From Vermamoeba vermiformis (lineage: Eukaryota), in the NCBI GenBank assembly GCA_045837725.1, contig JBEWZL010000145.1, positions 1 through 64,000 of the forward strand: a stretch of 64,000 bases of DNA. Direction: 5' to 3'. Below the pieces are notes generated by a model. That model was not told the DNA's origin. It was given only the letters and a program-made list of their open reading frames with translations, and made no database searches. Below are positions 4,806 through 22,336 of this stretch, piece by piece; within the stretch, counting starts at the first letter, position 1; every line of letters begins with the position of its first letter. The translations under genes were made by a program, and so were the position numbers.

Positions 4806-6703
4806 TTACAATCCCATTGGATAGGTCTCGGGCTCGTTAACATTAACGACGCTACGTGCGTCGAGTGGCTCAAGAGCTGAAGTTTCATCGATGTGAATGA
4901 CGCAGTCAAACTGTTGCGATATTTTGCAATTGAAATAATGGCTGTATCTCTCTGTATCGGGCTTATAAATCACCCCAATAGCTCGTTCTAGTTTGTTTTT
5001 GCCTAGCTCATTAACTGCAAAAGAGCGAATCAGTGACACTTCGAAATGACACTTTGACACTTTGACACTTACCAAGTTCTTTGTCGATTTTAATGTTTCC
5101 TGAGGGATTGGTTCTGAACAAAAGCATAAACTCTTTTTTGCCGACGCTGTGGAATAGTTCTTCGTAACTTCCAGGCATTCCTTTGTTCACTTGCATTGTG
5201 CGCACATCGCCGTCCCATTCGTCCGCAGCCGAGACCGTGCCTATTTGAAATCTCAGTTAATACTAGTCTCTATATTCAGTAGATATCATTAATATGATCG
5301 TACCTGTGTACGTCGTAAAACCAATGTTGAATGTATTTTCTTTGCCCCATTTTTCACGCACCAGTTGGCCAATATTAATTTCTTTGTCTATAGCACCAAT
5401 AAAGTTAGAACCCATCGGTTATTATTGTAGCCAACACCTATTATAAATTTTATAATACTTACTCTTTGCAGCGTCCGTGGCGCTTGCATCGCCCAAGTGC
5501 GAGTTGTGTGCCCACACGACTGCTTTGGCGACAGATCCGCCAACTTCTTGTTTGCTCGTTTCAATGAAATCCATAATCTCTTTTAGTGTCTCGACCATAT
5601 GTGAGTCTCGCATGTTCCAAGTGTCTGAAGAAAGAAATGCAAGGTTAGATCTGATCGCGCAACCACATCTACAAGTTTCAGACTTACTTCCTGAAAACAT
5701 GCACCTATAATATTCCTCTGCGTTCTTAACGACCTTTGCATTAATTTCGGCTGCAAATAAATCTTCTCCTTCGCGCAGAGATTCTTGTTGCGTGGCTGAT
5801 TTTTTGTTCATTTCTGAGAGTTCTCTTGTTACTTCGATTTCCCGATCTTTATCGAATCCAAAATTAGTGGCGTAGCCGTACGCTTGCGCGTCTGATTTAT
5901 ATCGATCGAAAAATGCATAGCGTTCCCTGGCCCGAGAATAAGCAACCGGATCCTTGTCTTTCAAATATCGAAGGACCTTAAAACGAAGAATTAGCCATAT
6001 AGTGATATTATAATAATTTTTTTAAATAACAAGAAGCAAATTCAGAAAAGAACGCGTGGAGTGACACTTGGATGTACTCCGAGAAAATTGAAAATTTTTA
6101 GACTTACCGCCTGCGCTGATTCGTAAAATGAATATAAATCGAGCCCGTAGAACCCGACTTTCATAGTTTGATCCGTTTGTTTATCGTTCCATTCCTTCAG
6201 CCACTTAATAAAATCAAGCATGACTTTGTTCCGCCACATCCAGCGTGGAAACCTATCAGCATTAAAACCTAGTTATACAGCTGTTTATATTACCTTTCAA
6301 AGCGACTGAACGCTTGGTCGAGAGTTGGCGCTCCCTTGCCTCGGACAAATCTGGTAAAAGTCAGATTCAATTTCATGAGTTAATGATTAAACATTACTAA
6401 TAGGGACTTACTTGTTTATTTCAAATGCATCGGGCCAATCAGCCTCTGCTGCGATAAAGGTCACACCTTTTTCGATAATTAATTTTTTGGTGATCTCGCA
6501 TCTTTCTCGATAAAACTCGTGTGTTCCGTGCGATGCCTCTCCTACAGTAATTGATATAAGAATATGGCATCTTAAATTATTATTATCCTACCTATTAACA
6601 CGACCTTGGCAGTGCCTATAGCTCTTAAGATGCTCGTGTAATCTTTGGCAGGAAGTGCGGATCTGCTGATCAAATCTACCAAATTTTGACTCTTTGAAGT
6701 CAT
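4806..6703 (-). CDS. Erythromycin esterase (Ere/TIKI-superfamily) family protein
   Basis: Spliced motifs IGEASHGTHEFYRER, AEADWPDA, FPRWMWRN, FYGLDLYS, WNMRDSHM, WAHNSHLGDA, ERAIGVIYKPDTERYSHYF and ETYPMGL*. Confidence 0.9.
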
Positions 6704-13956: not shown

Positions 13957-14243
13957 CGTTGTTGCTTGTATGTAATTGAAAAGTTAAATGAGTCAGTTGT
14001 TCGCACATTCAAAAAAACCACAAATTTTTGTATCTCGCGTGCAATCTCCCGAGCAATTACGCGACCTTTTATTTAATTGTGCCTCACAATTTAAATGACC
14101 TACTATCAGAGCCATCCTAGGCACGAACTACGTTCCCGACGGTCTGCCCAGCTAGCCATAGAAATTGCGCAGTTTCGAAACTAGAGCTAACTACAATTTA
14201 TTAATTAACAATGGCAACTGAGCCCAACGCCTAACATGCGTGC

Positions 14244-15878
14244 TTAAAGGCTAGCAGGAGTACTCAAATAGTCTTGGATAGCTTGAGTGAAGCTGGCCTT
14301 CAAACTGCTGGGAACCACGTCGACAATGGATTGCAGCTGTACATTCAAGTACACAGGTGCGGCTATTTTTAAAAATCGTTAGTAATATTTTCATATCATA
14401 ACATGACATAGCCTCATCAATTAAAAATTTTGAAACATAAATCCGGATTAGTGAACGGTACACACGCGTGTTTGTCACTAAAATCGCTTAATGCAGGGTA
14501 CTTACAAGGAATCGAAGCGTCCCAATCGCGCCAGTTCTCAGGAGTGTACTTGGAGAACAGACCGCCCTTGAGCTCCAAGTAAGTCTCGCTCTCTTGCATC
14601 AAACCGGTGTTGAGTTGTTGCTTGTACTCCTCTCTCATCTTCTCGAAAGTAATGCCAACGGCTTGGTGAATAGCTCTCTTCATGGTAGGGTCCGAGATCT
14701 CAATTTGCTTGTAGAGAGTAGCGTCAATCTTGTTCTTAGGCTTGTTGAGGATCGTGTTGGGTTGCACGTTCGTCGTTGGATCTTGCGAAGGGGCAGGACC
14801 TTCAGTGAAGGGCTTGTTTGAGGGAGGAGTAGTCTCAAACTTGAACTTAATGCCGAATTGCTTGGCCAAAGTCTCAGCATTCAAGTCTTGGAAGTTGGTC
14901 ACGTTCACGAACGAGCGCATGCGCAATGAACCTCCGAGATCCGCTTGAGCAACGTAGTAAGTACCGAAGTACTTGAAGAATTGGAAGTACTGTGCTTGAG
15001 TGGTGTTCGAGTAGAAAGGCAAACGAGCAATTGAAGCAGCTGCAACGGGTGAGAGATCCAACAAAGCGGGTGGATGCAATTGCACGTTGAAGAAGATGTG
15101 AGTTTGATCAATAATGTTCAATCGCATCTCTGAGTGGCTCAATCGATCGCTTTAAATACAAGGTACGTTAGTTGAAGACTCCGACACTAAGGAAAAATCG
15201 AGCGAAAAATTTTCTCGCTAGTACCCCGAAATTAAGGCTAAATAATGGTATGATTCGATAATAAGCTCTATATGAGTACTATTGGCCGTTAAAATTCGGG
15301 TAAAAAATGTGATCTTGTTGCAGATTCTAAAAATGTCATTCACGACTTACGCGATCAAATGGTACTCTTTACTGTTGGTATATGACGCGATGTCTCCGAA
15401 AGAAAGTGATACATTGTGTTTGTGAGCCTTATCTTCTCTGTACTCCTCCGTTGTGTTGTAGAGCTGCCGTCGCATCCAATATTAGCAATGATGATATTTT
15501 TGACGTTCAGAAAATCAATTTTGCATTATGCCAATAATTATGTATAACATTATGTTGATTTAATTAGGCATATTATGAGAATTTTAAATGGTTACTTACG
15601 GTATTGGTTGTGGTGTTGAAGACATTAGGAGTTTTAATTGTTTGGACTCCGTCAGGAATTGAATAAGTTCTATTATCATACGGTGATGTAATAGTATCTC
15701 CGCTGTATGTCAATTTAATAACGCATAATGCAGGTTTGTCATTCACGGTGTCATAACCTAAGCCGATCAAATCCATGCCGGGCAAGGGCGCGGGTAAATT
15801 GCCATAGATTTCATAGCATGGAGGTACGGCAATAGCGCCAATGATGAATGCAACTAATACAGTTAATAGGGCCTTCAT
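14244..15878 (-). CDS. Secreted single-domain MACPF/perforin-like protein (MACPF-A)
   Basis: Signal peptide MKALLTVLVAFIIGAIA, LPGMDLIGLGYD, signature FFKYFGTYYVAQADLGG, KGG...W..SI, and last exon ending AIQDYLSTPASL*. Confidence 0.9.
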
Positions 15879-16012
15879 CGTGTTCTTGCGTGTCAACGAA
15901 TTGATGGAAATAATTATAAGGAACATTCCAACGCCATTGCAGTATCTCATTTTAGACTTAAATAGTCAACCACCGGTCTTTGTAGGTGACCTTTATTTGA
16001 CTATAAACCGAA

Positions 16013-19000
16013 ATGGCGTCCTCGTCGTTTCTGGTGGTGCTGATCTCGCTCGGGCTATTATTGCTTTCTGCCAATAGCTTTATCGAAAGCAAGTCAACCA
16101 AGGTCCGTAAAATAACCAATTGTTACGATAAATATTCATTAATTACGTAAACAATAGCCGGGTACTTTTTGGCAAGAGTTTGATCAGCTTTATGGAAACA
16201 AAATAGACTCAGTAATTGACGAAAAAATCAACCTGATATCAAACAGGCATGAATATAGCGGATAGAAGAATTTGTATAATTTTCTAACGGTGATTATTAC
16301 TCAGGCGGATTTTACGTCATGACATCCAAAATCAAATATCAAGCAACGAAAATGTTGACGATAAGTCAAATGATATTCCTGGGCTAGATATCATGGGCCG
16401 AGGATTTAATTTTGTCAAAGGCGAAAGCTCCATCCCGTTGTTCCAATGGAAGAGAAACGTAAGTAACGCGATCTGATCTTTTCTTATGGCTCGTATGTCT
16501 CATACTTCGGTGGTTAGCATCACTCTAAGTATCACTCTCCGTACACCAAGCACACATATGACGTTCCTGACGAGGTTTTTGTCGTCAACACGCCTGAACT
16601 GAGTGGTCGTGAAGAGGCCGGAGTATTTTCATACGTTGAAGACTATCAAACTCATTTGGCCAATCAATACGGCGTGAATGCCTCGTACAGCCGCTATGGT
16701 TTTGGCTTGACTGAAGACGTCAAGGTCCTCAGAGACGTGATGACTTCAGTGAGCAGAACTTACGGCGCTATGGAACGTGTCTACGTCTTGAACACGATGT
16801 CGTTGTTGCCTTTGCAATACTTGACGGTAGATCCGCAAGTCACGCGCTTGTTGAACCTGTTGCCTCGATTCGATGTGACGACCAAGCACGCCTATTACAA
16901 CCTGTTCGAGCAAGTTGGCACGCACTTCATTCACAACGCGGCCTTTGGTGGCTCAATGCAGCTGCAACAAGTCTTCGAGACCAAGAGATTCAGAAACTTC
17001 ACTGAGACTAGCGTGTTGGACTTGCTCAGTCTCAAGTTCGACTTCTTGAGCTTGCACGGCATTGTGCTCAGAAATCAAACTTGGCAAGAGTTGGTCGATG
17101 ACAATGTCACGACTACCTTCAACATCACCAACTTCAAAGGAGGGGATCCTTCGGTGGCATTCACATTCAATCAATACAAGGTACCAACGATATTATATTT
17201 CTCGGAGAAATGTCTTCCTAATTTGTGTTAAAGGAATGGGCCGAGACATTGAAGTTCTTCCCAGTCCCTGTTCGCTACAGATTGGTCGAGATCTCGGAGC
17301 TCGTTACGGACCTCGCTCTGAAGGCCGACATTAAGAAGGCGATCGCAACTTACGCAGCGGATTTGTTGGCCACGGAAGCTAGTAAGTTCTAATGCTTAGC
17401 AAGCTGCACTAGTCGTACTAATGGTTCGTTCTAGCGTTCAAGTTTGGACCTGCAACCAACTATGCAGATCCGGAACTGGGAGCCCAAGTGTTCGGCACAT
17501 CGAGTGTCAATCACGATTGCTACACAACAGAAACGTGTGGTCGTTGCTGGTTGTTCTGGACTTGCTGCAAGAACACTACTAGCTGCGTCCCTCGCAACAA
17601 CCAACCGAACCTCATCGCTGACGAGGGAATGGGCGGCGACTTCACTTTCAACGATAACGTAAGAAAAATTATAGCCCTGATCGATGTTGAACTAATCGGA
17701 TGCGTTTTAGGATCTGGATCAAACTGTCGTGCTTGATCTTGGCTCTGTTCGACGAGTGCTGCATGTTGAAGCGGATGTTACTCATGCTGGTCGTATCAAT
17801 GAAGTTTGGGACTTTATTGAAGTGTTTACTTCCAACGACAACTACATCTGGCAACCATTCGGCATAAAAGGCAAGAGAGACGGTATTCCTGACATCCTGG
17901 AGGAAGAGAACTACATTGCTCGATCATTGCCCGTTTCTGCTCAATTTATCAAGGTAAGCGATACCAGAAACACCTACAGCTGGTGGATGCAGGATGCAGT
18001 TTTCTTGCTTTCTTGTGGAAGTAGTGACCCGAACACGATGTTGCAAAACGTCTCGGGCACGACCACACTAACAAGAATGCACCGCTTCCCGTCCGATCAG
18101 CGAAGTTAAGCTTGTTCAGGCCTTCTTAGTACTGGGGTAGGAGACTACCTGGGAATCGGAGGTGTTGTGCTCTTTACTTTTTTGCTTTTATTTTTCTTAT
18201 CCTCCCGTGTAGTCTAGCCCTAATATTTGAAAAATTGAACTAATCCTCTTTGAGATCCCGCGTTAACTTTTTTATTGTAGATCAACTTCGGTCCTTGTTC
18301 GATCCACAACGGCTTTGGTTCGACCGTTCGTCGCATTCGCGTGTTAGGAGTAGAGACAAGCCAGCCTGTTGGTCATCTTGAGACTATTACTGACGGTCAA
18401 AATGGTGCAGTAGTCGGATGGGCTTTTGATCCTCTCGATCTGAGCAGCTCTGCTACCATCGAGGTCTATGTCAATGGCAAGCTTCGTACTACTGGCAGAA
18501 CATCTTTGCCTCGCCCTGACATTGCTGGCCACTTCGATCTCGCTTCAGATGCGCGTATTGGTTTCAACATCCCGTTGACACTTGACGCATCCATTAACGT
18601 GCACCAGATCTACGTCAAGTTCATTGGCGTTGGCGGTGGTTCTTTGACAACCAACACTTTGCAAAAGCTGCTTGCACCTCCCGCTGGCAAATTGCTCAGT
18701 GTCACGCCAACAAGGTACGTCATGCCAATGCTTCATATTCCGTTCCTGTTACTAATTCTTTTTAACAGCGTGACTGGTTGGGCTTTTGATGTTGCAAATC
18801 CATCCCAATCCGTCTCCGTGGACATCTTTGTCAATGGTGTAAAGCACATCTCAGTCATGACAACTGAGACTGACGATAAGCTCAATCAACTCTTCAATAT
18901 TGAAGGTGCGCACGTCTTCAAGGCCGACTTGAGCGCATTGAGTCCTGGCATTCACACTGTTACTGCTCGTGCTAACATCAACGGGGAACAACGAACACTC

Positions 19001-20472
19001 GCCAATTCATTGACACTCGACTTGCGGTAAGTACTGAGCAGAGGCACGCAATAACTTCGATGGTTCTAATCATCTGTCATAGTCCACCTCTCGGCAAGAT
19101 TGAGACATTGACCGAGAAGTCCGTTAGCGGTTGGGCAATTGATCCGTCAGTCCCTTCAAGCCAGTCAAAAGTGCAATTATTCATTAACAACCAGTTCGTG
19201 GCTGAGCAACAGACTTCGATTCTTCGTCAAGACGTCAACCAATTCTACAGCACTAATGGAGCTCATGGCTTTGACATTTCATTTGATATTCAATTGGACA
19301 CTTCTTATGAAGTCGTAAGTCGTAGCACATTTTGTCATTGAATCGCAGATACTAATGTGCTATTTAAGGCTATCTACATTCTACTCGGAGATGGTCACCT
19401 GGCTCTCGTCGATTCCGAAAAGGTGTTCGTTGATTCGCCCGCCAACCGTGACACGAGCATTCTCGGTCCTATTGGCATCGGTTTTGACGTTGTCTACGAA
19501 GAGTTCAGACTGCCAGTGGTAGCTTTGACTTACTCCAATGGAGTTACTGTTGATTTGAGTGCCTTATTGAACAACACTGAGTACGCTTTCGTGCCGGAAC
19601 CCGATCAAGTTGAACTCCACGTCAACCTTGGCAACCTTTTGAACGATACTAGCGCGATCTACAATACCACCAAGGATTACATTAACAAGCACGCCGAGGC
19701 TGTTGGTAAGTATAAGCTTATACCGACCGAAAAGTAGGAATGCTAACGGAGATTATTAGGTGCCAAAGAGTGGTTGTACGTCGGAATTTTCCAAGTCAGC
19801 GACACAACACGCAATATTGCCAGTCTTTTTGACAATGCCTACACTGTTGTAGCGTCTTATGAGCGTTCTGTCACCTTGTTCAACGTGCTCTTGTTGCCTC
19901 CTCCTTTGTTGAGTAAGTACTGCATTAGTTTATCCAGATCCAAATCGTTACTAATGATTTTATCAAATTAAGGCTTTGACACGTTTGCCAAGGGACTGGT
20001 TAACTCTTTGCCTGCGTATACAAACGAGACCGAGGCTCAATACCGCGACGTGATTCAACAACTGGGCACGCACTATTTGTCGCGCATGACACTTGGTGGC
20101 AAAGTCTCTAGTTTGACAGCCATTGATACGACCAAGATGAACATCTCCAATGAAGACGAGTTGACGCAACAAGTTTGCATGGCGTTCAATTACCGCTTGT
20201 CCGCTGCTGGATCCATAGCTAAGGCGAAATACGAAGAGTCGTTGACGAGCGAGTTCATTGATGGCTCCAAGTCTACTTTCAGATACGTCGGAGGTCATCC
20301 CGAGATGTATCGATTGGATGAGTCCGAGGAATGGGCTGCGACTGTTATCGATAACCCTGTTGTTATTGAATATCAGTTGGAGCTGATCAGCAGTTTAGTG
20401 ACGGATGCAATCAAGCGCCGAGATCTTGAGCAAGCTATCGTAGATTATATTAGAGATGCTAGTAGTATGTAA
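16013..20472 (+). CDS. Large secreted protein with two MACPF domains, a Cys-rich/discoidin-like domain and three GWA.D repeats (MACPF-B)
   Basis: Exons from 16305 splice in frame to the stop at 20472: IPGLDIMGRGFN...VGTHFIHNAAFGG (MACPF 1), VLDLGS...IEVFTSND..W...AQFIK, three copies of P.G.....V.GWA.D......V.vfvN, then IGIGFD...LGTHYLSRMTLGG (MACPF 2). The join of the first (signal peptide) exon is less certain. Confidence 0.85.
18055..18173 (+). rRNA. 5S rRNA gene nested in an intron of MACPF-B
   Basis: 119 nt. The 5' GGGCACGAC pairs with the 3' GTTGTGCTC. Contains the eukaryotic 5S motifs CCCGTCCGATC, GAAGTTAAGC (box A), TTAGTACT, GGAGAC (box C) and CCTGGGAAT, followed by T runs. Confidence 0.95.
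18173..18204 (+). terminator. Pol III oligo-T terminators after the 5S gene
   Basis: TTT, then T6 (18178-18183), T4 and T5 runs directly downstream of the 5S 3' end. Confidence 0.75.
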
Positions 20473-20649
20473 AACGAATAGTTTCGTATCTTAATGCATG
20501 CCTTTTCAAAGTTCTTATCCTGCGGATTACTCGGTAATTAACAGAGTATAGACTGCTTCCAAGAATTTATCGTTTAACGAAAAGTTGAATTTACCGCACA
20601 AAATTAGGACTGGTGCAAACCGTTATTGCAATTCTATGGATCTACTTTA

Positions 20650-22336
20650 TTAAAGTTCTTGCTTAAGTTTTTCAGCCGTAGCGGCAGGATAGTACTGTTG
20701 ATGTACGACAGGAACTGCAGCGAATTCAGCCAAGCTTTGTGCAACAAGTTTGGGCTCTATAGATGCTTTAGTACTAGAACTAGTATAGTATAAGCTTATT
20801 AAAGTGCTCAAGTACCTTCGAGAGCAGCAAAGTGACCACCGGATGGATGCTCAACCTCGCGCACCACGTTGTAATAATAAGGAATAAATGCAGAAATAGG
20901 CTTAGCAATGTCTTGGAAGACAGTAATGCCTGTAGGCACTGAGACGTAGAAATCATACGGGGAAGCATATTGTTTAGGAATTGTCTCCTTGTAAAGTCGG
21001 ATCGATGAAGTGATGGTGTTGTTGAGGTAATAGATCATGACGTTATTGAGCAAGTCGTCTTTGCTGTAGCGCGAGAAGATGTTGCCCTTAATGTCGCTCC
21101 AATGGTACCACTTGTCGATGATCCACGCAGCTAATCCAGCAGGCGAATCACTCAAACCGTAACCGAGAGTCTGCGGGAAGGTAGCTTGTTGGTAGAGATA
21201 ACCAATGCCCGATAAGAAGTTGAAATTGTCGTTGTGTCGCTTCGTGTCTTTTTCATCCAAGATCCAGTTGGGCTTGATGAACGACATGACAGCCTTGAAT
21301 TTAGCCCACAAACCTGCAATGTGATGAGCTACTACCAAGGCCAAACACGTGCATACCTTTATAGAATGGTGGTCTGACGTCGAGCGGGTTGTTGATGTGC
21401 ACGGAGAGACAGCTATCGGGGTGATGTTGACCCAAGAGGCGCGTGATCAACGAGCCCCAGTCACCGCCATGTGCCATGTACTTGGTGTAGCCGAGCTTCT
21501 TCATAAGTTTATTGAAAGTGTGGGCCATTTGAAGTGCATCGAAGCCTGTGTTAGAGTCAGTTTTGAGGCACGTAACAATTTAATAACCGGGTACAAACCT
21601 TTGTTACGGGGCTTGTCAGAGAAACCATAGCCTGGCAGCGAGGGACACACGACGTGAAAGTAAATGCCGCCGGTGATGCCGTGAGCCGACGGGTCTATAA
21701 TTTTGTTATAATGGCAAATAACAAGATCATGGCGTACTTGTCAACAGATCGACTACTTTGCTGCACTCGTAGTAAGAACCGGGCCAACCGTGTGAAATCA
21801 ACAGCGGAATTGCATCACTGCGCTCCTTAGACTGAAAAAACATTAGAATTGAGCTAGCTAAATATTGCAAGAGCTTACTTTAACGTGTGCAAAGTGGATG
21901 TCAAGTCCGTCGAGGTCAACCTTGAAGCTAGGCAGCTTCTCGTTCAATATTTGTTCTTGCTTACGCCAGTCATATTCAAATTGCCAATAGTGAACAAGAT
22001 CTTTCATAAAGCTAAGAATAATCGCGTCAAATCCAAGGAGAGTTTTAAAAAACATGACATACCTCAAAGGAACACCGTATGACCAATCATCAACATCTTC
22101 AAGCTCGTGGGGCCAAACAGTCTTGTTGAGTCGTTCTTTGAGATCTTTTAAAAATTGTTCGTCTGCTGAGACGCGGAACGGGACAGGCGAGCTCTCTTTA
22201 GTGGCACAATTTATTGCACTGTATTGGTTAATATAATTTAATTATTGTACTAGTTCTTGCTTGTTGCAGATCCGATCCAGGCTTACCCGAAGATGCAGGC
22301 TGATAAAAATACAGCGGCAATTATAAGAAGGCGCAT
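20650..22336 (-). CDS. Microsomal-type (EPHX1/JHEH-like) epoxide hydrolase with signal peptide and C-terminal KQEL
   Basis: EHN motifs (LKERL, YDWRKQE), HGWPGS, PSLPGYGFS, nucleophile GGDWGS, DSPAGLAAWI and GGHFAALE. Confidence 0.92.

What the first reader, a model, noticed from the sequence alone, without database searches (positions are those of the whole stretch)
16013..20472. Single polypeptide with architecture MACPF - Cys-rich/discoidin-like - 3 bacterial-type repeats - MACPF
Seen: exons from 16305 to 20472 splice in frame without a stop, and both GTH(F/Y)x6GG signatures and both N-terminal G.G(F/Y)(D/N) motifs are present. The three ~90-aa repeats (P.G.....V.GWA.D...V.vfvN....T...R.D.....h.F) resemble Ig-like repeats I recall from bacterial surface proteins. 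Tandem MACPF domains are uncommon, and I do not recognise this arrangement with binding modules between them. A covalent dimer could pre-nucleate a pore.
Basis: partly seen in the sequence, partly recalled or inferred. Interest (0 to 1): 0.75.

Follow-up and report, generated by a model that had tools for sequence, protein, structure and literature searches.

The report
Amoebal double-perforin protein with binding modules
A free-living amoeba of the Vermamoeba kind makes one long secreted protein with two perforin-type pore-forming domains separated by a lectin-like domain and three bacterial-type Ig-like repeats, a layout kept in related amoebae and apparently undescribed.

Summary
Window 16013-20472 (+) is one 13-exon gene: 3525-nt CDS, 1174 aa, no internal stop. 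Spliced contigs from three public runs support 11 of 12 introns directly and one by loose ends. A Vermamoeba vermiformis transcript (P0001, 1172 aa, 88% identical) and environmental cDNA-type contigs encode the whole protein colinearly.

The layout is signal peptide, MACPF1, six-Cys segment, divergent F5/8C (discoidin) domain, three Ig-like repeats, MACPF2. The repeats are related to bacterial Big_7-like repeats. Both MACPFs pass Pfam, keep GTH(F/Y)x6GG and model with the canonical fold.

The same layout, plus a C-terminal discoidin, occurs at about 27% identity in at least three Echinamoeba exundans paralogues, so it is old and conserved within Echinamoebida.

The likely function, inferred and not shown, is a target-binding pore former that brings two unlike protomers per chain. 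It is a new variant of a known kind. An intact 5S rRNA gene lies in intron 7.

The parts
16013..16102 (+). Exon 1: start codon and signal-peptide-like N-terminus (MASSSFLVVLISLGLLLLSANS...), phase 0.
   Evidence: Sequence. Joint 16100->16156 (cut +2) in X1, X2 and X8. Same N-terminus in P0001 and P0013. The signal peptide is judged by eye; no predictor was run.
16158..16246 (+). It is followed by a GC-AG intron at 16247-16304.
   Evidence: tblastn with P0001 at 16158-16247, 97% identity. Joint 16243->16302 with 5 shared letters in X2. Intron ends GCATGA...CAG.
16305..16458 (+). Exon 3: start of MACPF1, with the GRGFN motif.
   Evidence: Loose ends at 16458 and 16518 in X2 fit the next exon.
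16518..17180 (+). Exon 4: MACPF1 core with GTHFIHNAAFGG (aa 245).
   Evidence: Pfam MACPF E 9.2e-09, 36.2 bits against a cut-off of 21.5. Motif. Joint 17177->17231 (cut +3) in X1 and X2.
17234..17381 (+). Exon 5: C-terminal part of MACPF1.
   Evidence: Pfam MACPF E 1.8e-05, 25.5 bits. Joint 17381->17435 in X1 and X2.
17435..17658 (+). Exon 6: linker with six Cys at aa 410-432 and the start of the discoidin-like domain.
   Evidence: Cys positions. Low pLDDT over 418-429 in the model of P0001. Joint 17654->17707 in X1, and 17657->17711 with one extra letter in X8.
17711..17953 (+). Exon 7: main part of the divergent F5/8 type C (discoidin) domain.
   Evidence: Pfam F5_F8_type_C on P0001 aa 437-545, E 0.0018, 18.9 bits, below the 28.2 cut-off. 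hhalign to the C-terminal domain of P0022-24: 98% probability, E 2.2e-13.
17954..18280 (+). Intron 7, 327 nt. The other eleven introns are 52-60 nt.
   Evidence: Joint 17951->18279 (cut +2, GT..AG) in X1, X2 and X8. Intron table.
18055..18173 (+). Full-length 5S rRNA gene inside intron 7, on the same strand as the host gene, followed by T runs.
   Evidence: Rfam RF00001, 104.7 bits (cut-off 38), model positions 1-120 of 120. T runs read.
18281..18714 (+). Exon 8: last strands of the discoidin-like domain plus Ig-like repeat 1.
   Evidence: 81% identity to P0001 and 33% to the bacterial-type repeat protein P0003 (E 4.4e-24). Repeat unit at aa 559-668. Joint 18712->18767 in X1, X2 and X8.
18769..19026 (+). 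Exon 9: Ig-like repeat 2.
   Evidence: Repeat unit at aa 664-769. Joint 19025->19082 in X1, X2 and X8.
19083..19314 (+). Exon 10: most of Ig-like repeat 3.
   Evidence: Repeat unit at aa 763-876. Joint 19314->19369 in X1 and X2.
19369..19705 (+). Exon 11: end of repeat 3 and the N-terminal part of MACPF2 (GIGFD), in one exon.
   Evidence: Sequence. X2 record 10 covers 18870-19704 across two joints.
19760..19912 (+). Exon 12: MACPF2, region of the first helical cluster.
   Evidence: Joints 19704->19759 (X2, X8, X21) and 19912->19973 (X1, X2, X8).
19973..20472 (+). Exon 13: MACPF2 core with GTHYLSRMTLGG (aa 1040) and the stop TAA at 20470-20472.
   Evidence: Pfam MACPF E 1.8e-21, 77.7 bits. Motif. 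Depth falls to zero after about 20608.
14216..15889 (-). Neighbouring gene, head to head: a spliced, secreted-looking protein with one MACPF domain. Its start codon at about 15878 lies about 134 nt from the start codon at 16013.
   Evidence: Pfam MACPF E 2.2e-11. X1 record 1 (1194 nt) has three joints. Translation. tblastn: 31% identity to MACPF2 of P0001.

Best explanation
SHOWN. This is one nuclear gene of an amoeba close to Vermamoeba vermiformis. It has 13 exons and is spliced and expressed. It encodes a 1174-aa protein with, in order, a signal-peptide-like N-terminus, a low-confidence helical stretch, MACPF1, a six-Cys segment, a divergent F5/8C (discoidin) domain, three Ig-like beta-sandwich repeats related to bacterial Big_7-like repeats, and MACPF2. 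The two MACPF domains are old paralogues, about 20-25% identical. Both keep the family signature and both model with the full fold: a central sheet and two helical clusters of 42-46 residues. The layout is kept at about 27% identity in Echinamoeba. All domains are about equally conserved.

INFERRED. The protein enters the secretory or phagosomal route. The central module (discoidin plus three Ig-like repeats) holds it on a glycan or cell-envelope ligand of a target. The two MACPF domains act as two neighbouring, unlike protomers of a MACPF ring, much as C8-alpha and C8-beta are delivered together. Each chain would thus bring a ready-made dimer, and the ring would need half as many binding events. 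The helical clusters would then unfurl into beta-hairpins, which is the established MACPF mechanism (recalled). For a bacterivorous amoeba the most likely target is ingested or nearby microbes, but the target is not known.
For: Gene and transcript:
- Exon model without internal stops.
- Joints at 11 of 12 introns and loose ends at the twelfth, in X1, X2 and X8.
- P0001 is colinear with the window from 16158 to 20469 and 88% identical over 1175 columns with 4 gap positions.
- Uninterrupted ORFs: P0013 and P0018 (1174 aa on 3.6-kb contigs), P0014 and P0016 (1211-1212 aa).

Domains:
- Pfam MACPF with two stretches, E 1.5e-42.
- PDB by sequence: MACPF2 to perforin-1, 2.8e-07; MACPF1 to Mpf2Ba1, 1.3e-04.
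- Full-length model of P0001: pLDDT 81.2, pTM 0.76, with the strand-helices-strand order in both MACPFs.
- Foldseek on that model: perforin 2.1e-14, Mpf2Ba1 pre-pore rmsd 4.0 over 320 columns, TgPLP1 TMt 0.69-0.72, then MPEG-1, C6 and C8.
- Discoidin: hhalign 98%, E 2.2e-13, to a domain that passes Pfam's cut-off in P0024 (31.4 against 28.2 bits).
- Repeats: pLDDT above 90 and an Ig-like fold.
- Bacterial relatives of the repeats.

Conservation:
- A1 is colinear in 5 of 5 proteins.
- Per-domain identity is 82-93% (window against P0001) and 20-39% (P0001 against P0022-24).
- Of the 21 differences to X1/X2 contigs inside this CDS among the 40 rows printed (336 further rows were not shown), 15 are synonymous and 6 are not.
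- Echinamoeba exundans paralogues P0177, P0183 and P0185 have the same order of parts, and P0183 and P0185 have signal-peptide-like starts.
Against: - There is no functional datum of any kind: no pore, no ligand, no location.
- No single contig from the three runs near-identical to the window (X1, X2, X8) spans the whole gene. Continuity rests on overlapping pieces and on relatives.
- In the raw RNA run X21, a more distant relative with 314 of 458 laid reads only 90-95% alike, reads lie mostly on 19504-20387. A shorter 3' transcript is therefore not excluded, although divergence explains the pattern as well.
- A crude test of alternating hydrophobicity in the four helical clusters did not exceed shuffles in three of four (z = 0.5, -1.1, -0.6, 2.0).
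- In the Echinamoeba-type subfamily MACPF2 has lost the His of the signature (GLTY, GVAY, GLVY and similar), so that domain may not insert there.
- The Ig-like fold matches are generic. Best Z is 8.7, and the tool itself says a best Z of 7-8 is typical background.
- The discoidin part is only moderately modelled, with pLDDT 42-88.
Confidence: 0.55

Rival explanations
1. One working head and one helper. Only one MACPF domain inserts into the membrane. The other has become a scaffold or regulator, as several components of the complement membrane attack complex insert only partly (recalled).
For: MACPF2 of the Echinamoeba-type subfamily lacks the signature His in all 11 sequences that carry that stretch and in P0022-24. 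The two domains are only about 20-25% identical and sit in separate deep clades. Hairpin-like alternation exceeds shuffles only in one cluster, of MACPF2.
Against: In the window's own subfamily both signatures are intact. Both domains are equally conserved, 90% and 91% against P0001. Both model with complete helical clusters of 42-46 residues.
Confidence: 0.25
2. A non-lytic MACPF protein. It would be an extracellular adhesion, cyst-wall or developmental factor in which the central module binds the amoeba's own wall or matrix polysaccharide and the MACPF domains do not make pores, as for astrotactin or Torso-like (recalled).
For: Discoidin and Ig-like accessory modules are common in matrix and carbohydrate-binding proteins; fold matches include accessory modules of carbohydrate-active enzymes and bacterial adhesins. 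Astrotactin-2 is among the fold matches (rank 38). Vermamoeba encysts (recalled).
Against: The best matches of both domains are proven pore formers: perforin, TgPLP1, Mpf2Ba1 and MPEG-1. The GTH(F/Y)x6GG signatures are intact.
Confidence: 0.15
3. An artefact: two or more separate genes wrongly read as one, or a bacterial contaminant stretch in the assembly.
For: Intron 7 is unusually long (327 nt) and holds a separate gene, the 5S rRNA, which could have marked an intergenic gap. The repeats have their nearest non-family relatives in bacteria.
Against: The 327-nt stretch is spliced out in X1, X2 and X8, and it interrupts a single discoidin domain. Repeat 3 and MACPF2 share exon 11. Full-length ORFs are seen in relatives. 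Twelve spliceosomal introns and ordinary eukaryotic neighbour genes surround and fill the locus.
Confidence: 0.03

Closest known systems
Complement C8 (C8-alpha and C8-beta MACPF chains in one complex)
   Same: Two unlike MACPF domains are delivered together before membrane insertion. This is the only sense in which 'two MACPF domains' appears in the papers found (PMC3021121, search listing and start of abstract only). C8-alpha is a fold match to the model (3ojy_A, 2qqh).
   Different: C8 is made of separate chains with TSP1, LDLRA and EGF modules (recalled). Here the two domains are one polypeptide with a discoidin domain and three Ig-like repeats between them. Whether the two domains pack side by side could not be examined.
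Perivitellin-2 (PV2) of apple snails: a MACPF chain linked to a lectin chain
   Same: A carbohydrate-binding part is coupled to a MACPF pore former to aim it (PMC12031178 and PMC3667788, search listing and start of abstracts only).
   Different: PV2 has one MACPF and a tachylectin-like lectin on a second chain. Here there are two MACPFs and a discoidin plus Ig-like module in one chain. Binding of the module is not shown.
Mpf2Ba1 and GNIP1Aa (bacterial MACPF proteins) and Photorhabdus Plu-MACPF
   Same: These are the best sequence and fold relatives of MACPF1: 8b6v, E 1.3e-04, covering aa 85-394. Foldseek gives 8b6v_A rmsd 4.0 over 320 columns, 6fbm_A 1.4e-11 and 2qp2 8.7e-13.
   Different: They have a single MACPF followed by a C-terminal binding domain (recalled). 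They are bacterial.
Perforin-1, Toxoplasma PLP1 and MPEG-1/perforin-2
   Same: These are the best relatives of MACPF2: perforin-1 at 2.8e-07 and PLP1 at 4.6e-05 by sequence; 3nsj, 5own and 6u2l by fold. MPEG-1 is the phagocyte's bactericidal MACPF (recalled), a functional analogue for a bacterivorous amoeba.
   Different: Each has one MACPF with C2, APC-beta or P2 membrane-binding domains. None has a second MACPF or Big_7-like repeats.
Double-MACPF proteins of protists without a central module (P0036 of Vermamoeba; P0027, P0040, P0041 and others)
   Same: They have two MACPF domains in one chain, and one comes from the same organism group. 19 of the 150 best representatives are of this kind by phmmer labelling. 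14 have two regions of at least 220 aa each.
   Different: Their linkers are short (about 15-120 aa) or, in P0081, a 380-aa Cys/Pro-rich spacer. None has the discoidin domain or the Ig-like repeats.
Bacterial Big_7-like Ig repeats (PF17957) in cell-wall hydrolase-like, GH43, pectate lyase and glycosyltransferase proteins
   Same: They share the same ~100-aa unit with GWA.DP, RPD and HGF: E 4.4e-24 to P0003. Big_7 is above cut-off in P0026 (29.3 bits) and P0030 (27.9). The fold is an Ig-like beta-sandwich.
   Different: The amoebal units form their own clade (support 0.92) with three positional subclades. They score below Pfam's cut-off (17-20.7 against 24.1 bits) and sit between two MACPF domains.

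Membership tests
MACPF (Pfam PF01823) | Profile match above Pfam's gathering score, for each of the two domains | tested here: met
   Window exons score 36.2 and 25.5 bits (MACPF1) and 77.7 bits (MACPF2) against a cut-off of 21.5. P0001 has two stretches, E 1.5e-42.
MACPF (Pfam PF01823) | Signature (Y/W)-G-(T/S)-H-(F/Y)-x6-G-G (motif recalled) | tested here: met
   GTHFIHNAAFGG at aa 245 and GTHYLSRMTLGG at aa 1040. The residue before the G is V and L respectively, not Y or W. In the Echinamoeba-type subfamily MACPF2 lacks the His.
MACPF (Pfam PF01823) | Fold: bent central sheet flanked by two helical clusters (future hairpins) | tested here: met
   The model of P0001 has strand-helices-strand order in both domains, with clusters of 42-46 residues. 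Foldseek matches perforin, Mpf2Ba1, TgPLP1 (TMt 0.69-0.72) and MPEG-1.
MACPF (Pfam PF01823) | Helical clusters with alternating polar and non-polar pattern | tested here: inconclusive
   Beta-moment against 500 shuffles gives z = 0.5, -1.1, -0.6 and 2.0. The measure is crude and no known pore former was run as a control.
MACPF (Pfam PF01823) | Oligomerises and forms membrane pores | not testable with these tools
   Needs protein, liposomes and EM.
F5/8 type C, discoidin (Pfam PF00754) | Profile match above the gathering score | tested here: not met
   18.9 bits (P0001) and 20.4 bits (P0002) against 28.2. No hit on the single exons.
F5/8 type C, discoidin (Pfam PF00754) | Homology to a domain that does pass the family threshold | tested here: met
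   hhalign of the central domain against the C-terminal domain of P0022-24 gives 98% probability, E 2.2e-13, over 105 columns. That domain scores 31.4 bits, above 28.2, in P0024. The ESM Atlas neighbours are all F5/8C clusters at 0.87-0.88, which is a lead only.
F5/8 type C, discoidin (Pfam PF00754) | Beta-sandwich jelly-roll fold with ligand-binding loops | tested here: inconclusive
   The region is all-beta in the model, but pLDDT is 42-88 and below 50 in parts of the P0045 model. No fold search of this domain alone was possible.
Big_7 bacterial Ig domain (Pfam PF17957) | Profile match above the gathering score | tested here: not met
   17 bits on the window exon and 20.7 bits on P0002 against 24.1. 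The bacterial-type relatives P0026 (29.3) and P0030 (27.9) pass.
Big_7 bacterial Ig domain (Pfam PF17957) | Sequence homology to bacterial repeat units | tested here: met
   E 4.4e-24, 1.5e-16 and 6.6e-08 to P0003, P0004 and P0005. 111 of the 150 best representatives are repeat-only proteins. Three loci lie in Acidiphilium and Proteobacteria genomes.
Big_7 bacterial Ig domain (Pfam PF17957) | Ig-like beta-sandwich fold | tested here: met
   pLDDT is above 90 over the repeats of P0045. VIA: 9kvu_A Z 8.7, rmsd 2.2, 84 aligned; 1ulv_A Z 8.3; 4kdw_A Z 7.8. Foldseek: FN3 and Ig arrays at E about 1e-05. The matches are generic.
C8-like pre-assembled pair of unlike MACPF protomers | Two different MACPF domains physically joined before insertion | tested here: met
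   They are joined covalently in one reading frame and one spliced message.
C8-like pre-assembled pair of unlike MACPF protomers | Side-by-side packing of the two domains as neighbours in a ring | not testable with these tools
   The structure tool returns neither coordinates nor inter-domain error for the full-length model.
Lectin-coupled MACPF toxins (PV2 type) | The carbohydrate-binding part binds a target glycan and delivers the MACPF | not testable with these tools
   Only the presence of a discoidin-type domain and Ig-like repeats is shown.

The most novel reading that the evidence does not exclude
Echinamoebid amoebae took an Ig-like repeat of bacterial origin, a module that in bacteria rides on cell-wall and polysaccharide enzymes. 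They tripled it and set it, with a discoidin lectin domain, between two unlike perforin domains. The result would be a single-chain, self-nucleating analogue of complement C8 that recognises the envelope of prey bacteria and punches them in or near the phagosome. That would be an independent invention of an aimed, heteromeric membrane attack system in a protist.
Probability: 0.2. Interest if true: 0.75.

Novelty: new variant of a known kind. Interest (0 to 1): 0.55.

Why it matters
MACPF pores are usually built from many copies of single-domain chains, or from several different chains as in complement. A natural chain with two unlike MACPF domains fixes the order and the 1:1 ratio of two protomer types. 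That makes questions about ring nucleation, alternation and partial insertion directly testable with one recombinant protein.

The central module is a likely case of a bacterial surface or carbohydrate module reused by a bacterivore to aim a pore former.

The search also shows that double-MACPF proteins are a recurrent class in protists. My searches of the held papers found no description of it.

For annotation, these proteins are currently 'hypothetical protein' or unnamed.

Tried and rejected
- Complex prediction on MACPF1 (aa 70-385) against MACPF2 (aa 878-1172) of P0001 gave no verdict (runs 0.43, 0.01, 0.13; mark 0.34; my alignment was not used). It counts neither for nor against packing. 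Earlier hand-ins met a full queue.
- No whole genome is held for this window.
- The viral contig scan with A1 matched 46 pattern stretches, none a relative, so there is no sign of a giant-virus copy in that collection.
- The prokaryote genome scan found only 3 weak repeat loci (25-26% identity) and no MACPF-plus-repeat gene. The scan depends on two exact peptide patterns, so absence is weak.
- The metagenome scan gave only two short contigs, L004 and L005. Synteny and the 5S-in-intron state in relatives could not be checked.
- NCBIfam gave nothing for P0001 or P0003.
- The hairpin amphipathicity test was inconclusive.
- The fold of the six-Cys segment is unresolved (pLDDT 45-57).
- The repeat tree has no taxon labels for the non-family units, so no donor group can be named. 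The ESM Atlas neighbours are bacterial (Actinomycetota, Pseudomonadota, Acidobacteriota) at 0.76-0.82, a lead only.
- The MACPF domain tree was read without support values and used only to say that the two domains are deep paralogues.
- One paper search was badly framed and gave nothing useful.
- I considered and rejected exon shuffling of repeat units. The introns do not sit at equivalent places in the three repeats: phase-2 introns lie 13 residues into repeat 2 and at the repeat 2/3 border, and a phase-0 intron lies inside repeat 3.

Full report
**1. What is at the coordinates**

The stop-to-stop ORF map and the sequence show a chain of open pieces on the + strand from 16013 to 20472. They are separated by short stretches with GT...AG ends and CTAAC/CTAAT-like branch sites.

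My model has 13 exons:
- 16013-16102, 16158-16246, 16305-16458, 16518-17180, 17234-17381, 17435-17658, 17711-17953
- 18281-18714, 18769-19026, 19083-19314, 19369-19705, 19760-19912, 19973-20472

A script confirmed a CDS of 3525 nt and 1174 codons plus the terminal stop. Eleven introns are 52-60 nt and one is 327 nt. Eleven start with GT and one with GC (16247-16304).

It misses exon 2 (16158-16246), without which exon 1 cannot be joined in frame.

**2. Is it one message?**

I laid four public runs on 14200-20800. Contigs of X1, X2 and X8 are mostly 95-99% identical to the window. X8 is on record as RNA-seq; X1 and X2 are guessed to be RNA, and they carry spliced forms.

These contigs carry joints at 11 of the 12 introns. 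After the stated shifts, the joints fall exactly on my exon borders. The twelfth intron (16459-16517) is supported by loose ends in X2 that read on into the next exon. The 327-nt intron is spliced out in all three runs.

No single contig spans the whole gene:
- X1 record 3 (877 nt) starts in MACPF1; joints in X1 lead on to the Cys-rich exon.
- X2 record 10 (920 nt) runs through exons 9, 10 and 11.
- Exon 11 itself encodes both the end of repeat 3 and the start of MACPF2, so there is no gap in which a second gene could start other than an internal promoter.

Full-length evidence comes from relatives. A search with exon 8 found P0001, 1172 aa, marked as a complete ORF of a Trinity transcript. 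The cluster look-up names it EP00029 Vermamoeba vermiformis. P0001 aligns colinearly to the window from 16158 to 20469. It is 88% identical to my model, with four gap positions.

The same cluster search found uninterrupted ORFs of 1174 aa on contigs of 3599 and 3619 nt (P0013, P0018). It also found ORFs of 1211-1212 aa on contigs of 6.8 and 8.2 kb (P0014, P0016). At 82% identity to the window, these can only be spliced copies.

The raw RNA run X21 comes from a more distant relative: 314 of 458 laid reads are only 90-95% alike. It covers mainly the 3' part and the 5S gene. I cannot use it to exclude a shorter 3' message.

**3. The organism and the setting**

- The window's G+C is 34-46% per 2-kb bin.
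- The published V. vermiformis CDC-19 draft has 41.7% G+C and 3.5 introns per gene (PMC7125106, passages found with 'find').
- The other long ORFs of the window match ordinary eukaryotic families: epoxide hydrolase, EGF, serine carboxypeptidase, LRR, VIT, trehalose phosphatase, RhoGAP, and SPO22/ZIP4.
- No genome is held for the window.

I conclude that the window is nuclear DNA of an amoeba close to, but not identical with, the sequenced Vermamoeba transcriptome strain.

**4. The parts of the protein**

*N-terminus.* It looks like a signal peptide by eye; no predictor was available. A helical stretch of low confidence follows.

*MACPF1 (about aa 80-383) and MACPF2 (about aa 877-1174).*
- Both pass Pfam.
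- Both carry GTH(F/Y)x6GG.
- In an AlphaFold2 model of P0001 (53-row alignment, mean pLDDT 81.2, pTM 0.76) both show the expected order: long strands with two helical clusters of 42-46 residues.
- Foldseek places the model next to perforin (2.1e-14), the Mpf2Ba1 pre-pore (rmsd 4.0 over 320 columns), TgPLP1 (TMt about 0.7), MPEG-1, Plu-MACPF, C6, GNIP1Aa, C9 and C8.
- By sequence, MACPF1 is nearest to Mpf2Ba1 (1.3e-04) and MACPF2 to perforin-1 (2.8e-07).
- The two domains are about 20-25% identical to each other and fall in separate deep clades of a domain tree. They are old paralogues, not a recent internal duplication.

*Between the two MACPFs:*
- A segment with six Cys at aa 410-432. It is poorly modelled.
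- A divergent discoidin domain. Pfam F5_F8_type_C stays below its cut-off (18.9-20.4 against 28.2 bits). A profile-profile comparison nevertheless links it at 98% probability (E 2.2e-13) to the extra C-terminal domain of the distant relatives P0022-24. That domain passes the cut-off in P0024 (31.4 bits). The ESM Atlas neighbours are all F5/8C clusters at 0.87-0.88, a lead only.
- Three repeats of about 100 aa.

**5. The repeats**

Outside the family, the proteins look bacterial:
- P0003 (NCBI and JGI), E 4.4e-24 to exon 8, with four units after a long N-terminal region that Pfam left unnamed.
- P0005, with GH43.
- Others with pectate lyase plus a type IX secretion tail, LGFP repeats, or glycosyltransferases.
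- Three loci in Acidiphilium and Proteobacteria genomes.

Big_7 passes Pfam's cut-off in P0026 and P0030 but not in the amoebal protein.

A model of P0045, a 402-aa fragment of the distant subfamily, gives the repeats pLDDT above 90. Fold searches return Ig-like and FN3-like beta-sandwiches of carbohydrate-active enzymes and bacterial adhesins:
- 9kvu_A: Z 8.7, rmsd 2.2, 84 aligned
- 1ulv_A: Z 8.3
- 4kdw_A: Z 7.8
- 3pe9_A: Z 7.9
- Foldseek FN3 arrays at about 1e-05

These values lie in the range the tool calls common, so they name a fold, not a function.

In a tree of 364 units, the 26 units of the amoebal family form one clade (support 0.92). Within it, first, second and third repeats each form their own clade (0.91, 0.94, 0.87). 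I dropped the near-identical members of the P0013 cluster and kept at most three units per non-family protein. The pattern points to one origin, followed by a triplication before the subfamilies split. The tips outside the family carry no taxon labels, so a donor cannot be named.

**6. How widespread is the layout?**

A HMMER search of P0001 against 1.84 billion representatives gave 1921 hits at E up to 0.001, 555 up to 1e-10 and 18 up to 1e-30. I labelled the best 150 by phmmer with the four parts of P0001:

| Kind | Count |
|---|---|
| Whole layout plus a second, C-terminal discoidin (P0022-24; 1217-1262 aa; 27-28% identical; colinear over the full length) | 3 |
| Repeats only | 111 |
| Two MACPF regions, no central module | 19 |
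| A single MACPF region (M1 or M2 label) | 12 |
| P0168, three M2-labelled regions (one MACPF stretch by Pfam) | 1 |
| Fragments carrying the central domain (labels MID, MID-REP, M2-MID) | 4 |

A few of the single-label rows are also pieces of the family, for example P0071 (repeats only) and P0025 (single MACPF).

For the two-MACPF proteins without the module:
- Pfam shows two MACPF stretches in 18 of 32 proteins scanned.
- 14 have two regions of at least 220 aa each.
- One of them, P0036, is from Vermamoeba itself, and P0041 is another EukProt transcript.
- P0081 has a 380-aa Cys/Pro-rich spacer instead.

A further search with P0022 found relatives that the cluster look-up names as three Echinamoeba exundans transcripts: P0177 (1282 aa), P0183 (1328 aa) and P0185 (1333 aa). 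All three have the order MACPF, central domain, repeats, MACPF, discoidin.

Vermamoeba and Echinamoeba are both in the class Echinamoebida. The layout is therefore older than their split.

Conservation is even across domains. Of the 21 differences to the X1/X2 contigs that fall inside this CDS among the 40 rows printed, 15 are synonymous. A further 336 rows were not shown.

One difference stands out. In the Echinamoeba-type subfamily the MACPF2 signature lacks the His.

**7. How it most likely works**

Shown:
- One expressed gene.
- A signal-peptide-like start.
- Two intact-looking MACPF folds.
- A discoidin-type domain and Ig-like repeats between them.
- Long-term conservation.

Inferred from what is known of MACPF proteins (recalled): the protein is exported or sent to phagosomes. 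The central module binds a surface glycan or envelope polymer. The two MACPF domains enter a ring as neighbours, so each chain brings a ready-made pair, comparable to C8-alpha and C8-beta. The helical clusters then unfurl into hairpins.

I give this 0.55.

The main variant is that only one domain inserts (0.25). It is favoured by the lost His in the other subfamily and by the weak hairpin pattern in three of four clusters. A non-lytic role is possible (0.15). An artefact is practically excluded (0.03).

A test of whether the two domains are predicted to bind gave no verdict. The structure tool gives no coordinates, so the packing remains open.

**8. Comparison with what is known, and novelty**

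Searches of the held papers found:
- Nothing for 'MACPF' with 'Vermamoeba' (0 papers).
- For 'two MACPF domains', 'tandem MACPF', 'double MACPF' or 'MACPF domains in tandem', 3 papers hold a term and 2 are listed. Both concern complement C8/C9.
- 2 unrelated papers for 'MACPF' with 'Amoebozoa'.
- 14 papers for 'MACPF' with 'amoeba', none on amoebal MACPF proteins judging by titles and abstract starts.

The library lacks most subscription journals, and domain databases may already list such architectures, so 'undescribed' is provisional.

The parts are all known kinds. The combination, and the fact that double-MACPF chains are a recurrent class, are the new elements. I therefore file it as a new variant of a known kind, with interest 0.55.

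Noticed in passing
window 18055-18173 (+), inside intron 7 (17954-18280): A complete 5S rRNA gene (Rfam 104.7 bits, model 1-120) lies in an intron of the protein gene, on the same strand, and is followed by T runs. Intron 7 is about six times longer than the other eleven introns. In X21 many reads cover the 5S and then run on into unlike flanks at 18019 and 18182, so other 5S copies exist elsewhere.
   Followed up: partly
window 14216-15889 (-): A second, single-domain MACPF gene lies head to head with the double one. The two start codons are about 134 nt apart. It is spliced (three joints) and well covered in X1, X8 and X21. Its MACPF is 31% identical to MACPF2. One of its joints (15148->15351) has an extra letter and non-canonical ends that I did not resolve.
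   Followed up: partly
window 16247-16304: This is a GC-AG intron (GCATGA...CAG), the only non-GT donor of the twelve. It is confirmed by a joint in X2 and by the protein sequence of P0001 and P0013.
   Followed up: yes
window 18715-18768: Intron 8 is 54 nt, in frame and free of stops, so the ORF map shows 18281-19030 as one open frame. Retention would add 18 residues inside repeat 2. The contigs show the spliced form only.
   Followed up: partly
P0013 and P0016 against P0014 (relatives): Otherwise near-identical cDNA-type ORFs differ by one Gln at the exon 1/2 border (KALKQPGSFW against KALKPGSFW). This looks like alternative use of two adjacent acceptor sites. The window has no CAG at the corresponding place.
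   Followed up: no
P0081 (1169 aa, ENA): This is another double-MACPF protein, with about 380 residues of Cys- and Pro/Thr-rich sequence between the two domains. Long inserts between two MACPF domains are therefore not unique to the family studied here.
   Followed up: no
P0024 (Logan, 55,305-nt contig), P0176 (104,535-nt contig), P0186 (216,366-nt contig); Members of the Echinamoeba-type subfamily are called as uninterrupted ORFs of 1026-1260 aa on long contigs. In that lineage the gene seems to have few or no introns, against twelve in the window.
   Followed up: no
window 4809-6021 (-): Two ORF pieces match erythromycin esterase (Pfam PF05139, E 6.6e-30 and 7.3e-12), a family I recall as mainly bacterial. 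It may be another gene of bacterial ancestry in this amoeba.
   Followed up: no
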